DNA of 56,390 nucleotides, the filler included, from Catajapyx aquilonaris (Eukaryota), in NCBI GenBank assembly GCA_000934665.2. It is 2 parts of 2 records of this genome, joined end to end, with 100 filler letters (N's around TTAATTAATTAA, not from the genome) between each part and the next. Parts side by side here need not be neighbours in the genome. Positions count along the whole stretch, not along the records: positions 27,367 to 56,390 come from KZ539282.1; 1 more part is not named here. One strand, written 5' to 3'. Of the stretch, positions 33,039 through 40,421 are shown piece by piece (within the stretch, counting starts at the first letter, position 1; every line of letters starts with the position of its first letter). The position numbers and the translations under genes were made by a program. The notes below the pieces were generated by a model. That model was not told the DNA's origin. It saw only the letters and a program-made list of their open reading frames with translations, and made no database searches.

Positions 33039-33998
33039 TCATGATGAGAGTTGCACCGGTTGAGCGCAATATCCAAATCCCTCATCAAACACTTTGCAGC
33101 ACTTCTTATTCCCTGGACAAGTGAAATCTGACACGCAAAATATGGAGGTATCCATATCGATGTCGTCAGGCCTGGGACAATGCCCCTTCTTCTCCTCTGA
33201 AAGTAGTAGATATAATTGCATTTATAGGAACGTCTATACCTATGTCGCGTTGTCAGAAAAAGCTGAAAGACACTAACCTTCCGGACATTGAAATATGGGA
33301 CAGCACCCATAGGGATCCTCGAATCTAGTGCAGTTTTCTTTGGACGACATATCCCCACATTCTACTTCAGAACAATTCGTAGGAACCTCTCCTGCTTGCG
33401 AGTAATAATGTCAGTCTTAGTGGGAATGTTAATTAAATGAGCTTAAGAAAAAAAAAATGCAATGCTTACCGATTCCACAATAGTAATCCATGCAACACGT
33501 CCCTTTCGGAAGAACTTCTTGGCAGCTTCGGTTATACGGAGCAGAGCATTGCTCTGGTTTACAGTCTTCTGTGAAAATGTACTCTGGGCAGCACAGCCAT
33601 GGCGCTTTAATCGACACATAACTCTCCCCTTCGTCAGGTTTCCAACAACTGTCGTCATCTCCAGGATACGGACAAGTCAACATTGCAAAACTTTCGTCTA
33701 AAATGATTTTTTAAAAAAATCACTGCGTTATTGTAACTCCAACAACAATAATTCGACATATGCAAGAGCAGGTACGAACCTTTGGTGCAAAAGTACACTT
33801 CTCTCTCCTTCCATGGGAATTTGATCGAAACACAACGTTGGCCCTCTACTGGAGCATTAAGCCCAACAATTGGAGCATCTGTATAAATATAATCAGAGTA
33901 GTTTAGTTTCAGGCTTCACAATAAATATTTAAAAAAGTCTTACCATCAGCCTGGGCCAGGCTGATGCAGATGCAGATGCAGAGAACTATGGCTATCAT
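33039..33998 (-). CDS. Secreted Cys-rich protein A (217 aa): signal peptide, Cys modules, C-terminal 6-Cys WAP-like domain
   Basis: Five exons: 33998-33944, 33878-33780, 33697-33470, 33391-33278, 33196-33039. All introns GT-AG and phase 1; total 654 nt, open. Signal MIAIVLCICICISLAQA; WAP-like KKGHCP..FCVSDFTCPGNKKCC..GYCAQP; AATAAA about 40 nt downstream. Confidence 0.88.
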
Positions 33999-35219
33999 CC
34001 TGAAGATTGCACGCTGAGGCTGAGACTCAATCCAGAAGATCCCGCGCCCTCCAATTTAAACTCATCTGACCGGCGGATGTGAGCAAGGGCAGAAATTCCC
34101 CCCATGAAGTACACTGGCACATACGTATTCCCCAAGCATTACGTCACAGTTTCCCGGAAAGTGTAATTTTCGCGTGATTGACAGCGAGACTCATGACGTT
34201 TGTTGTAGGGTTTAAAGAGTGAGTGGACAACGGGTTTTCCGATCCAGGGGAAATTGCTAAGCATACCTTGTCACATATTCCCCGGACAGCTGTTACCATG
34301 GAAAGAGGGGAAGACTCTTGACAACATCCTCTTGCATCAAAGATGGCGACTAATAGGCCATTCTGTACCATCCTCCGAGTTATTCATTGTTCACAATGCC
34401 AGCCAAAAAAAATTGCTGTTACATATAGGATTAACTATGGTGACATCATCTCAAGGTTCAGTTTGCACAATTTTATGACCTTTGTTTATCATCCTGGCAC
34501 AATGTGAAAAGAAATAAAGCGAGTATTTTCACTTATCACGACATCGACGAGGCCACTAATTTCCGGTGGAAAAAATAAAAATCCAACGCCTTTAAACCGC
34601 CTTTAAAGCTCAAAAGTGCACTATTTACAACCTAAATCGGCTTAAAATTGCAGCAATTTTGGCAATTTTCAGCGCCCATTAAGCGATCCGTGGGAAGATC
34701 CCCAAGCTGTGGGCCTTCCCGGACTTTCCCTCAACCCAAGTTTAATTTCATTTTGCGTGATGTGTTCAGCTTCAGACTGACCTCCTTCGCCTCTGCCATT
34801 GTGTCCACCACAAAAGCGCTCTGAATAGCTTCGATGCGTTACATTTCAAGCTCAGTTGGTCATATTGTTCCCGAGCAAAATGGACAACTCCGGCGTTCCA
34901 AGTTTCTCCCGAAATACCTTGAAATTCTCCACTCTTCGAATCCAACCGCTCACGAAAAATTCCATCTCGCCAATCACCGTCGCGCTCTGTCCCCCCAAAG
35001 TGCGACTTCCTCACAAGCGCCAAATATCTTGTCACTTCCTGGTTTCCGCTAAAAGAAAACGCATGATAAAGGCAATTGTTGCGTATGTGGGTCCACCGCT
35101 GTGCCGATGACACCGAGGTCAACTTCCCGTATGTTTGAAAAAGAGTCGCCCTTGCGAGGATCCGGTGTGGTCAACTATTTATAATATTTAATCGTGGTAA
35201 GAACTTGGCCCGAGTTTAG

Positions 35220-36464
35220 ATGAGCAGCATGATGGACGCAGTTCACGTGCTCTTGCTACTGGCGTTTTCGCACCTAGCTGTTGCTCAAATAGGTTACCAT
35301 TATTGTTCAGTAGATTTATCACACTGATGATTGACTCGCTGTTTTTTTTTAGAAGGAGGAGAGTGCACCACGAGCCACCCAGTGGAAGGTCAGGAATGTG
35401 TCAGCATTAAGTTGCCCTGGAAGAAGACACCGGTGTACTTATGCACAGGTCAGTTACAACCATTTAGGTCACTGATTGTTGAATTTTTCAGCCATCTTTA
35501 CTTAAATCATGCGCTAATTCCAACTTTTCCCAACCACAAATATTGTGTTGAATTTAATGAGGCACCTCTAGCGATATTAATAAATACAGTATTAATTTAA
35601 AACAGTTACTATACAGTACTATTTGAGCACAGTCTGTATATAAGAGACACTGTCTTGTCTTACTGCAGACATTTTTGCGAACTATGTCTGTGCTGCTTAA
35701 TTTTTTAAAAAAAATTTCAGAGAAAACCTTCCCGATAAGGTCTTGCAGTATTCCAGAGGGCCAGCGCTTCTGCTGGACACCTCCAAGTAGTAGCTATTTG
35801 TCCGTCAACGCCTCCTGGATGTGTTGCCCTCAGATTTCGGAAACAGGTGTGCTCTTATGCATTAATCACATTTTGCAATCGACCTAACCCTCATTACTTG
35901 ACCGATTGATACCCGCCTGTTAGACCGATGTGCGGAAGTGCAGTGCCCCGCCGCACCATTTAACAGGACATGCAAAGAGATCAATCACCCTGGGAGCTGC
36001 TGCCCTACTTACTACTGCGGATCTGGAGGTACGTACGATGTACGCCTATAAAGCCTACAATGTTGGGGAATCAATTGTCATTTTTTGTGGGGGCGTAGAT
36101 GACTGGAGGTCATGCCAGAAGAACCTGACCTGCCCTGCCAAGCCGACTGAGAAGAGGTGTAGAAGCTTTTATGATCAGCATGACTGCTGCCCCAAGCATC
36201 AATGCCCAGGGTCATCAGGTAAAAAGAGGAATGACCTTAGTCGGATCTTTTGTTCATGGTGACCTTTGTTATGCAGAATCCAAGGATGGTAGATGTCCTC
36301 GAGGGGCTTGGGCACCTGCGACTATTGAGGGGACGAATCCGAACGGAAGTAAAACATTCCACACTTGCGTTGGTGACCATACTTGCCCTGAAGATCAAAA
36401 ATGCTGCCAGAAGCATCCCAATAGTGTGGGATACTGTGTCGAGCCCACTCCAGGAGAAGAATAA
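35220..36464 (+). CDS. Secreted Cys-rich protein B (~235 aa), paralogue of A, C-terminal 6-Cys WAP-like domain
   Basis: Six exons: 35220-35292, 35353-35448, 35721-35846, 35924-36028, 36099-36218, 36277-36464. All introns phase 1; 708 nt open. TATA-like tatttataa at ~35176, signal MMDAVHVLLLLAFSHLAVAQ (start may be 35229), AATAAA at 36533. Confidence 0.88.
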
Positions 36465-38593: not shown

Positions 38594-38852
38594 CTAATAA
38601 TGGTCATTATTTTTCCTAAACGGATGGTACAAGAGGAAAAACAGGAAGGACGACCTTGACTCACATGTTGCACCACTTTTTCCCACTGTTGCACTGTCTA
38701 CACTTTTATTTTAAAATCCCGGAAAGAGTGAGACCAGTCACGCATTCTTTTGGCCTCTAAAAACTCTGATCGCGTGCACAGAATGACAGGGACTCATTTT
38801 ACAATGTGACCTTACCGCCTTCCAGTTCTTCCTCACATGTGCCACAGTTCGA

Positions 38853-40421
38853 ATGGGCTCCTACTGCACATTTTTCTTACTTCTTGCAATCTTTCCTTAC
38901 GTCATCGCTGACTGTAAGTACAGAATTCCCTGTCATTACGACTTGTAAAAAATGAGTCATATTGTTGCAGTTCAACCTTTGTGCTCTCACAACGAAAGTG
39001 TAAGCAATCAAACATGCTTTTCAATTACAATACCAAAAAGGGGAGGCTCGAGCCAAACACATCATTTTTGCCTTCCAAAAGGTACGTATGTCTAGGAATA
39101 CCCAGATTACATGCATGCATTAATATTATTTATTGCCAGACGCCTTAGATGTACGGCCAACAACATATTGTCGTGATACGAGCTGTACTGAGGCCCATCC
39201 CAGCGACTTTGTCTTTAAGGCGCCTTGGCTGTGCTGTGATGAACTGTCTCAACCTAGTAAGATGAATGTATTTGCTTTGCTAATTAGAAAATCATAACCC
39301 TAATTGCTTCAGATCCGTGTCGTAAAATCAAATGCCCACTGCCACCAAGCAATCGGAAGTGTGAAACATACTATGAAGAAAGCCAATGCTGCCCTTCTTA
39401 CTACTGTGGGAAAGAAAGGTTAGACTGTGAATACTTTTCATCCTTTAATCCGATTTAAAAAATTTAAAAGGCAAGATGCATACTGATGATATTTTTTGAT
39501 GACTTGTGTTTAGCCCAGTATATGGGTAACTAGGCTCTTGAAGCCAAATGACACCTCTGTACAAAGTGTTTCTATATGGTCCACATGAGTTCATCTAATA
39601 TACGTTTGTTTGCCAGAATCTTTATTGAACACCATGAAGAATAACCTAGGAGAAGAAGCTGTAGCAACTTTTTTTTTGAACCGTTCGCAGAATTCAAGAC
39701 CATCAAAATTACTGCACAACCGTAAAATGTCCAAGACGCAAAGTGCCAAAGACATGCATCGAATTTCATGACCCTTACGACTGTTGTTCTCAGATAGACT
39801 GCACAAGTGAGTAAAATAGTAGGCTAATAAAAAATAATCATCATAGTTTATTCCACCAATTAGTGGGGCTTTTGCAGTATACATAACACTTGACATGTGC
39901 ATGAATATAGGACAGCATAGTTACAATATTATATCGACAAAAGTTAACTTTTTTACAGGCAAAAAATAATTTCCTTTCCTTTCCTTGCATCATAATGTAC
40001 TGATATGCCCAATACCCTTCATGCAGATGTGGAAAAGAAGAGCAAATGTCCTTTTCTGCACGTGGACCTGGCCATTTATCGACCAAAACTGGTAGATGCT
40101 GATGCAGAAAAGCTGTCGTGGGACAGGCGCAACTGGCACTTTGAAAGGCAAAGGCAACTTTTGTTCGTGTGGGACGAAAAGAGCCAGTCATATAGCGAGA
40201 TGACTGAGGTCAGGAGATGTGTGGGTGACCACACATGTCCCAACCAAGAAACGTGCTGTCCTGCCAGTGGATCTCTGGATGGACGTCCCTTTTCTCCATA
40301 TCCTAAGGCTTTTTTGGGCTTCTGTGTACCCATATTGGATCCAGAGGCTCAAGTGATCAAAGTCGTCGTGGCTCCTCCCAAGGGCGAGAAAGACCAAACC
40401 CAATACCAAACCTCACCTTAG
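38853..40421 (+). CDS. Secreted Cys-rich protein D (301 aa), paralogue with long-loop 6-Cys WAP-like domain
   Basis: Six exons: 38853-38913, 38971-39081, 39140-39256, 39313-39418, 39691-39806, 40027-40421; 906 nt open. Signal MGSYCTFFLLLAIFPYVIA; motifs APWLCC, DPYDCC, CVGDHTCP. Confidence 0.85.

What the first reader, a model, noticed from the sequence alone, without database searches (positions are those of the whole stretch)
33039..40421. Four-gene family with an unfamiliar five-module secreted architecture
Seen: genes A-D share, in order, a signal peptide; module 1 (C-x-S-[IV]-x-x-P..C); module 2 (C..C..A[PS]W[LM]CC); module 3 (C-x4-C-x6-7-C-x8-CC-x4-CG); module 4 (C..C..C-x4-D-x3-CC-x4-C); and a WAP-like domain. 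Sequence between cysteines is highly diverged while all frames stay intact. Established: modules 3 and 4 resemble the C-terminal half of VWC domains, and WAP domains occur in crustins and protease inhibitors. I do not recognise modules 1-2 or this combination. Inference: a lineage-specific, fast-evolving immune, venom or secretion family.
Basis: partly seen in the sequence, partly recalled or inferred. Interest (0 to 1): 0.8.

Follow-up and report, generated by a model that had tools for sequence, protein, structure and literature searches.

The report
Secreted disulfide-bead plus WAP protein family
Four neighbouring genes in an arthropod genome belong to an old, unnamed family of secreted proteins, also present in springtails, built from four small disulfide-locked repeats and a stripped-down WAP domain; the parts resemble known modules, and the job is untested.

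Summary
Four genes (18 of 18 introns GT-AG, open frames) encode signal peptide, modules 1-4 and a WAP-like domain. The interpretation needs changing. (1) The family is not confined to this lineage. It has at least 11 members on five contigs here and full-length homologs with the same order in Orchesella cincta, O. dallaii and Allacma fusca, auto-named 'WAP domain-containing'. (2) It looks old, not fast-evolving: synonymous sites are saturated among A-D, the youngest pair has dN/dS 0.37, and Orchesella orthologs are 90-94% identical. (3) Modules 1-2 are probably degenerate copies of the module 3/4 repeat, each keeping a different subset of its disulfides. Cys-masked register tests give p=0.0003-0.05, and AlphaFold2 puts the same hairpin in all four; hhalign is not significant. 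(4) The WAP domain lacks Cys2 and Cys7 and carries a 13-110 residue loop there. Best guess: a secreted matrix or surface scaffold, not an elafin-type inhibitor, crustin or venom. No RNA evidence for this genome. The scan's index held no sequence look-alike, only related giant repeat genes in this genome.

The parts
33039..33998 (-). Gene A, 217 aa, 24 mature Cys. Exons 33998-33944 (signal), 33878-33780 (module 1, lacks the first Cys), 33697-33470 (modules 2+3 in one exon), 33391-33278 (module 4), 33196-33039 (6-Cys WAP, 13-aa loop)
   Evidence: AATAAA 36 nt after the stop
35229..36464 (+). Gene B, 232 aa, 25 mature Cys, head-to-head with A. Exons 35229-35292, 35353-35448 (M1), 35721-35846 (M2), 35924-36028 (M3), 36099-36218 (M4), 36277-36464 (6-Cys WAP)
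   Evidence: AATAAA 68 nt after the stop
37098..38593 (+). Gene C, 297 aa, 25 mature Cys. Exons 37098-37170, 37241-37357 (M1), 37433-37573 (M2), 37969-38076 (M3), 38139-38593 (M4 + WAP in one exon, 55-aa loop)
   Evidence: groups with D at 100/98
38853..40421 (+). Gene D, 301 aa, 25 mature Cys. Exons 38853-38913, 38971-39081 (M1), 39140-39256 (M2), 39313-39418 (M3), 39691-39806 (M4), 40027-40421 (WAP, 56-aa loop, C-terminal tail); intron 4 modelled as phase 2
33780..33878 (-). Module 1 exon of gene A (example): Cys-x14-Cys hairpin with a Pro-Trp turn, read as a degenerate repeat keeping Cys3 and Cys6
33470..33697 (-). Modules 2+3 exon of gene A (example): module 2 keeps repeat Cys1, 2, 4, 5 and the Pro-Trp turn; module 3 is the complete six-Cys repeat
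43191..43693 (-). Gene E (outside the given range): hydrophobic N-terminus + two canonical 8-Cys WAP domains, 123 aa. Its first WAP core is the closest non-family relative of the family's WAP core among those fetched
   Evidence: score 38.6, against 31.9-40.3 for the 11 family cores and at most 23.6 for the other 32 non-family cores

Best explanation
An old family of secreted proteins shared by this non-insect pancrustacean and springtails, with the layout signal peptide - four tandem small disulfide-locked beta-hairpin repeats (VWC C-half-like; repeats 1 and 2 degenerate) - six-cysteine WAP. It probably arose by tandem duplication of a phase 1-1 repeat exon followed by joining to a WAP exon (inferred). 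Most likely job (inferred): an extracellular matrix or body-surface scaffold. A conserved spare cysteine in repeat 1 could tie it covalently to itself or a partner. The twin Pro-Trp hairpins of repeats 1-2 would form the conserved binding head. The WAP core, freed of its Cys2-Cys7 bond, displays a paralog-specific loop in place of the protease-binding loop. Shown here: gene structure, family membership, Cys patterns, homologs. Probable (about 0.7): modules 1-2 are the same repeat as 3-4. Probable (about 0.7): the repeat derives from VWC. The function is about 0.45.
For: Family: 7 more paralogs on 4 other contigs, all with the same order and open frames. Full-length homologs: P0005 scores 154.8 bits, E 2.7e-40, against the family profile; names. 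Repeat unity: module 1 has exactly Cys-x14-Cys in 12 of 15 proteins. With cores anchored on cysteines only and Cys columns masked, column-permutation p = 0.0004 (M1-M2), 0.002 (M1-M3), 0.002 (M1-M4), 0.0003 (M2-M4), 0.049 (M2-M3), 0.036 (M3-M4), against 0.09-0.45 for a WAP control. The module 1 donor lies 4 nt after the last Cys in 8 of 11 paralogs, as in 34 of 37 repeats of the giant gene. AlphaFold2 of the Orchesella homolog P0016 (pLDDT 66-90 per 10-residue block over 31-180) gives two-strand hairpins in the same register in all four modules; gene A's exon 3 agrees for modules 2 and 3. Paired Cys losses among paralogs (alignments): 1+4 (K module 3; G module 2), 2+5 (H/K modules 2 and 4), 3+6 (F module 4). 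The 2-5 and 3-6 pairs match the CV2 VWC1 bonds Cys43-61 and Cys50-64 (PMC6270503 passages). Scaffold role: 25 mature Cys (odd) in 7 of 7 full-length outside homologs and 5 of 11 paralogs. WAP Cys1-Cys3 loop of 13-110 aa, Gly/Pro/Met-rich in P0005/P0015; Ser/Thr/Pro tail in Allacma. Net charge -18 to +1 in the 11 paralogs. The same repeat builds a gene of at least 37 repeats in this genome.
Against: hhalign does not confirm modules 1/2 as the repeat. Probabilities are under 7%, except 55% for M2-M3, which comes from overlapping fragment ends and is an artefact. The permutation test ignores relatedness among rows. The link to VWC is indirect, and the spacing differs (CC-x4-C here, CC-x2-C in 9 of 9 VWC halves). 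Foldseek's top hit for gene A exon 3 is the CCN3 vWC domain, but at E=3.7. Paired loss is not clean everywhere: I, J and L lose module 4 Cys5 but keep a Cys near position 2, and G and H carry a seventh WAP Cys. Gene A itself and F, H, K, L have even Cys counts, so the spare Cys is not universal. No expression, localisation or binding data exist. Expansion to 11 copies also fits a defence role.
Confidence: 0.45

Rival explanations
1. Immune recognition or effector protein: a crustin/Vago-like secreted factor that binds microbes through the repeats and the variable WAP loop, with paralogs covering different ligands.
For: WAP domains are the hallmark of crustins (PMC9680087 passages). This genome has 82 WAP matches, including a Gly-rich crustin-like one. 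The family is expanded to at least 11 copies with variable loops. That single-VWC (Vago-type) proteins act in arthropod immunity is recalled; only a search listing was seen.
Against: The proteins are not cationic, whereas crustins are described as cationic with 12 conserved Cys, 8 in the WAP domain (PMC11678330 passages). No sign of positive selection in the 3 measurable pairs (dN/dS 0.25-0.37). Orchesella orthologs are 90-94% identical.
Confidence: 0.3
2. Protease inhibitor in which the enlarged WAP loop is a variable reactive or bait loop.
For: The WAP primary contact region lies around Cys2 (PMC9680087), exactly where this family varies most. An earlier scan note reports WAP joined to pacifastin in this genome (unchecked).
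Against: Cys2 and Cys7, which pin the canonical loop (Cys2-Cys7 pairing as listed for a barnacle crustin), are missing in A-D. No residue is conserved in the loop, and its length runs from 13 to 110 aa. AlphaFold2 confidence is low over most of it.
Confidence: 0.12
3. BMP/TGF-beta modulator like chordin, crossveinless-2 or kielin.
For: The repeats resemble VWC halves.
Against: Only the C-terminal half is present. In CV2, BMP binding uses the clip and subdomain 1, and subdomain 2 is dispensable (PMC6270503 and PMC10326224 passages). Collagen 2a uses residues from both subdomains.
Confidence: 0.06
4. Venom component specific to this lineage.
For: Small, secreted, Cys-rich and multi-copy.
Against: Full-length, conserved homologs occur in springtails, which are not known as venomous (recalled). 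No toxin-family match below E 0.001.
Confidence: 0.03

Closest known systems
Uncharacterised springtail proteins: Orchesella cincta ODM88267.1 (Ocin01_18414) and ODN03447.1 (Ocin01_03237), O. dallaii CAL8118372.1/CAL8118374.1/CAL8137902.1, Allacma fusca CAG7659274.1 (UniRef auto-name 'WAP domain-containing protein')
   Same: Same five-part order, same Cys pattern with 25 mature Cys, both Pro-Trp motifs, 6-Cys WAP with a long loop.
   Different: Only 17-33% identical to the G000 paralogs at non-Cys core positions. They form their own branch (98/99). The Allacma model carries an IFT20 domain in front (probably two genes fused by annotation) and a Ser/Thr/Pro tail. No function is described in the papers searched.
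WAP / four-disulfide-core proteins: crustins, single- and double-WAP proteins, elafin/SLPI (Pfam PF00095)
   Same: C-terminal WAP core: over the Pfam cut-off in A, B and all 7 other paralogs, under it in C and D; secreted.
   Different: Six Cys instead of eight, no conserved contact loop, not cationic, and four repeat modules in front. Of 33 other WAP cores fetched from this genome, 28 show the Cys7-Cys8 pattern.
VWC domain (Pfam PF00093), subdomain 2 of crossveinless-2, CCN3, collagen IIA
   Same: C-x4-C ... C ... CC ... C order; inferred 2-5 and 3-6 bonds agree with CV2. ESM Atlas feature lead VWC at 0.76. Non-significant Foldseek top hit CCN3 vWC.
   Different: No subdomain 1 or clip, CC-x4-C spacing, an inferred new 1-4 bond, and no Pfam or PDB sequence match.
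Giant tandem-repeat gene on G000:C1987 (L013/L014); possibly the same kind as the giant genes in scan note e1-7683049
   Same: Same six-Cys repeat (30 of 37 with spacing 4-8-8-0-4), mostly one repeat per phase-1 exon; hhalign 97% to module 3 and 95% to module 4.
   Different: At least 37 intact repeats. No module 1/2-type degenerate repeats and no WAP were seen in the 13.8 kb examined.

Membership tests
WAP four-disulfide core (PF00095) | Profile match above the curated cut-off | tested here: met
   A 32.6 and B 27.3 bits over the 20.8 cut-off; C 17.2 and D 17.4 under it; 7 of 7 other paralogs over it
WAP four-disulfide core (PF00095) | Eight conserved Cys forming four disulfides | tested here: not met
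   Six Cys in A-D, with Cys2 and Cys7 absent; definition from PMC9680087 passage
Elafin/SLPI-type WAP protease inhibitors | Primary contact region around Cys2, usually with a Met | tested here: not met
   Cys2 absent; loop 13-110 aa without a conserved residue
Elafin/SLPI-type WAP protease inhibitors | Protease inhibition | not testable with these tools
   needs an assay
Crustins | Cationic, with 12 conserved Cys of which 8 form the C-terminal WAP domain | tested here: not met
   Net charge A -18, B -3, C -7, D 0; 24-25 Cys with a 6-Cys WAP; definition from PMC11678330 passage
Crustins | Signal peptide and single C-terminal WAP domain | tested here: met
   (signal peptide by inspection)
VWC domain (PF00093) | Ten Cys with subdomains 1 and 2; Pfam match | tested here: not met
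   Six-Cys half only; no PF00093 match in module exons or at these loci in the genome search
VWC subdomain-2-like repeat | Homology to the C-terminal half of VWC | tested here: inconclusive
   hhalign 72% via the giant-gene repeats, 13% (M3) and 1.6% (M4) directly; Foldseek E=3.7; no VIA match at Z 2 or more for the exon 3 model
VWC subdomain-2-like repeat | Disulfides 2-5 and 3-6 as in CV2 | tested here: inconclusive
   Paired Cys losses among paralogs agree, with exceptions in I, J, L; not measured
Chordin/CV2/kielin BMP modulators | BMP-binding clip and subdomain 1 | tested here: not met
   Not present in any module
Same unnamed family as the springtail proteins | Colinear five-part homology over the full length | tested here: met

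The most novel reading that the evidence does not exclude
Repeats 1 and 2 have split one ancestral three-disulfide set between them and together form a new ligand-binding head (twin Pro-Trp hairpins plus a free Cys). That head cross-links a family of paralog-specific WAP 'loop display' proteins into the cuticle surface or another secretion of early-branching hexapods. The family would then be an overlooked, ancient component of the body surface of soil hexapods and a natural series showing which disulfides a VWC-derived bead or a WAP core can lose.
Probability: 0.15. Interest if true: 0.65.

Novelty: new variant of a known kind. Interest (0 to 1): 0.42.

Why it matters
It defines an unnamed protein family that databases label only by its weakest part (WAP). 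It shows the family is shared between springtails and a second non-insect pancrustacean lineage, and it reduces a puzzling five-module layout to one repeat plus a reduced WAP. The paralogs' paired cysteine losses predict a disulfide map that can be tested directly. Springtails such as Orchesella are laboratory animals with annotated genes, so the function can be approached there. It is not a new mechanism: modular Cys-rich secreted families are common in arthropods.

Tried and rejected
That is no evidence either way, and no reads were laid. Word-index protein searches with gene A exon 3 (1 candidate) and with a modules 2+3 alignment (560 candidates) found nothing. The module 1 profile search gave 12 hits; 9 were multi-stretch matches, the 5 of these that I read were repetitive unrelated proteins, and all 9 were dropped. 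That search is incomplete: leave-one-out recovers only 5 of 11 paralogs at E 0.001 or better, and it missed P0016 and P0017. Absence from insects and crustaceans is therefore not shown. The ESM Atlas gave a 78-member, all-arthropod, Pfam-free cluster at 0.76 for P0005, a lead I could not open. Fold searches found nothing significant: Foldseek; VIA (no match at Z 2 or more; only Z up to 2.5, nearly all on one predicted helix). PDB sequence searches found nothing relevant. Homodimer prediction for P0016 residues 30-186 returned no answer (score 0.00, alignment not used). Several mixed-fragment alignments stacked modules wrongly and were not used for searching or folding. Their stacking of modules 1-4 was not counted as evidence, because WAP stacked too. 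Pfam on 78 other long reading frames of the window found nothing. Literature: nine searches listed no paper on this family; 'springtail' with 'WAP domain' gave 0 papers. The library lacks most subscription papers, and no supplements were read; springtail transcriptome or proteome tables could list these genes. Rejected: pseudogenes (frames open, dN/dS below 1), chance motifs, recent burst of duplication (synonymous saturation).
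Full report
Observation. Reading both strands gave four gene models. A lies on the minus strand (33998-33039, 217 aa), head-to-head with B (35229-36464, 232 aa); C (37098-38593, 297 aa) and D (38853-40421, 301 aa) follow B. All 18 introns are GT..AG, 17 are phase 1, and no frame is interrupted. Each module sits on its own exon except modules 2+3 in A and module 4+WAP in C. The motifs are far above chance: 4 or 5, 4, 8 and 4 hits against 0.22, 0.01, 0.01 and 0.01 per resampled window. 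Full-length identity among A-D is 30-39%. Pfam recognises only the WAP part. Signal peptides were judged by eye. No RNA run was listed, so splicing is inferred.

Organism. Mitochondrion-like fragments show cox1-trnL(taa)-cox2-trnK-trnD-atp8-atp6, the pancrustacean arrangement (recalled). The insect odorant-receptor family gave one weak match among 15 candidates, and the odorant-binding family three weak ones. I read this as a non-insect pancrustacean, plausibly an early-branching hexapod; the class is not determined.

Family size. Own-genome searches and inspection found seven more paralogs: F on C1588, G on C206, H on C2553, and I-L in tandem on C395. All keep the order and open frames (J's first exon was not located, and some acceptors in F, G and L were chosen to keep the frame). 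Eleven is a lower bound. Another contig, C1987, holds a gene with at least 37 copies of the module 3/4 repeat, 30 with spacing 4-8-8-0-4 and 34 with a phase-1 donor 4 nt after the last Cys.

Homologs elsewhere. Two word-index searches failed. A module 1 profile against 1.84 billion representatives gave 12 hits, of which 3 were single N-terminal matches. One, P0005, is Orchesella cincta Ocin01_18414, a 353-aa protein with all five parts (E 2.7e-40 against the family profile). Searching with it gave 6 hits among 11 candidates. With cluster members these are a second O. cincta gene, O. dallaii orthologs of both, an Allacma fusca protein and two unnamed JGI proteins. The JGI proteins are uninterrupted on contigs of 1352 and 1277 nt, which suggests spliced transcripts (inference). 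All named ones are 'hypothetical' or 'WAP domain-containing'. The outside proteins form one branch apart from the 11 G000 paralogs (98/99), so the layout predates that split and each lineage probably duplicated it separately; the root is unknown. The range beyond springtails is open, because the module 1 search recovers only 5 of 11 left-out paralogs, and an all-arthropod Atlas cluster of 78 members at 0.76 is an unopened lead.

Rate. Synonymous sites are saturated in all 6 pairs among A-D (pS 0.79-0.86). Only 3 of 55 pairs were measurable, with dN/dS 0.25, 0.32 and 0.37 (the last with bootstrap 0.26-0.52). Orchesella orthologs are 90% and 94% identical at non-Cys core positions, and A-D are about as far from each other (23-33%) as from springtail proteins (17-33%). 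The divergence is best read as age. I have no background rate for comparison.

What modules 1 and 2 are. Number the six cysteines of modules 3/4 as 1-6; Cys3 to Cys6 spans 14 residues. Module 1 has Cys-x14-Cys in 12 of 15 proteins (C, D and G are longer). Module 2 keeps the CC pair and two upstream cysteines but lacks 3 and 6. Anchoring each on cysteines alone puts the Pro-Trp of module 1, the Pro-Trp of module 2 and the Pro-Tyr/His of module 4 (A, C, D) in the same columns. With Cys columns masked, permutation p-values are 0.0004 (M1-M2), 0.002 (M1-M3, M1-M4), 0.0003 (M2-M4), 0.049 (M2-M3) and 0.036 (M3-M4), against 0.09-0.45 for a WAP control (an earlier version with shifted registers is). 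The module 1 exon ends 4 nt after its last Cys in 8 of 11 paralogs, like the giant gene's repeats. AlphaFold2 of P0016 with a checked 33-row alignment (mean pLDDT 68, pTM 0.41) predicts strands 42-48/56-61, 88-91/99-101, 121-123/136-138 and 168-170/179-181: one hairpin per module in the same register. Against this, hhalign never reaches significance for modules 1 or 2, the permutation test ignores relatedness among rows, and I could not superpose coordinates. I put the single-repeat reading at about 0.7.

Disulfides. Paralogs lose cysteines in pairs: 1+4 in K module 3 and G module 2, 2+5 in modules 2 and 4 of H and K, 3+6 in F module 4. Exceptions are I, J and L (module 4 Cys5 lost, a Cys near position 2 kept, extra Cys in module 2) and a seventh WAP Cys in G and H. 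Bonds 2-5 and 3-6 correspond to Cys43-61 and Cys50-64 of crossveinless-2 VWC1 (PMC6270503, passages). The mature count is 25 in B, C, D, I, J and 7 of 7 full-length outside homologs; A has 24, lacking the first Cys of module 1. That cysteine is the likely spare one.

Relation to VWC. Modules 3 and 4 match the giant gene's repeats at 97% and 95%. Those repeats match nine true VWC domains of this genome at 72%, whereas modules 3 and 4 directly give 13% and 1.6%. The Atlas lead (0.76) and Foldseek's top hit (CCN3 vWC, E=3.7) point the same way without significance; Pfam, PDB sequence and VIA searches are blank. VWC ancestry is probable, not shown. The BMP-binding clip and subdomain 1 are absent (PMC6270503 and PMC10326224, passages).

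The WAP domain. It lacks Cys2 and Cys7, one bonded pair (pairing as listed in PMC11678330, passages). The Cys1-Cys3 loop, which holds the protease contact region in elafin-type proteins (PMC9680087, passages), is 13, 23, 55 and 56 residues in A-D and up to 110, Gly/Pro/Met-rich, in P0005. Among 33 non-family WAP cores fetched (from about half of the 82 matches), the first WAP of neighbouring gene E scores 38.6 against the family core, inside the family's range, while the next best scores 23.6. An E-like exon is a plausible donor (inference).

Function. Shown: intact genes, a conserved layout, acidic-to-neutral charge, loss of the canonical inhibitor loop. Inferred: secretion; a chain of disulfide-locked hairpins with a conserved Pro-Trp head, a spare cysteine for cross-linking and a variable displayed loop. 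This fits a matrix or surface scaffold best (0.45). Immune binding follows (0.3), then protease inhibition (0.12), BMP modulation (0.06) and venom (0.03).

Novelty. Nine paper searches listed nothing on this family; I saw passages of four papers and only listings of the rest, and no supplements. The scan's index gave no sequence or word match but notes giant repeat genes and other WAP or VWC fusions in this genome (unchecked). I had found the C1987 gene before seeing those notes. Verdict: a real, apparently undescribed family assembled from familiar kinds of parts; a new variant of a known kind; interest 0.42.

Noticed in passing
window 43191-43693 (-): Gene E: small protein with a hydrophobic N-terminus and two canonical 8-Cys WAP domains; its first WAP core closely resembles the family's 6-Cys core.
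   Followed up: partly
L013/L014 (G000:C1987 about 26000-37000, -): Giant gene with at least 37 tandem six-Cys repeats, mostly one per phase-1 exon, with some interleaved aromatic-rich spacer exons; ends not defined.
   Followed up: partly
L012 4619-6030 and 7518-9027; L056 452-1844 and 2623-3956; L057 5849-4594: Subfamily H-L (100/99 in the tree) with rebuilt module 2 and a module 4 that lost cysteines and gained inserts; a tRNA-like, SINE-like insertion sits in an intron of J near L012:8110-8300.
   Followed up: partly
L010 6419-5114 (G000:C206): Paralog G has a cysteine-free N-terminal extension of about 120 residues with an acidic end.
   Followed up: no
L062 5701-6081 (G000:C2289): Gly/Tyr-rich WAP exon that looks crustin-like and also seems to lack Cys2 and Cys7.
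   Followed up: no
window 45283-45789 (+): Reading frame with a long Pro-Glu-Pro-Ala repeat followed by acidic and basic stretches; weak, sub-threshold Pfam PARP-repeat match.
   Followed up: no
window 29498-29806 (-): C2H2 zinc-finger exon.
   Followed up: no
window 8728-9234 (+): Ser/Pro-rich reading frame that looks like the first coding exon of a conserved arthropod gene (BAIAP3/Munc13-4-like, recalled, not tested); no Pfam match.
   Followed up: no
L067 and L065 (G000:C5905, C8523): Mitochondrion-like fragments; the C5905 copy has frameshifts in cox1 and is probably a nuclear insertion.
   Followed up: partly
P0017 (Allacma fusca CAG7659274.1): The annotated protein joins IFT20 to a family member, probably a gene-model fusion.
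   Followed up: no
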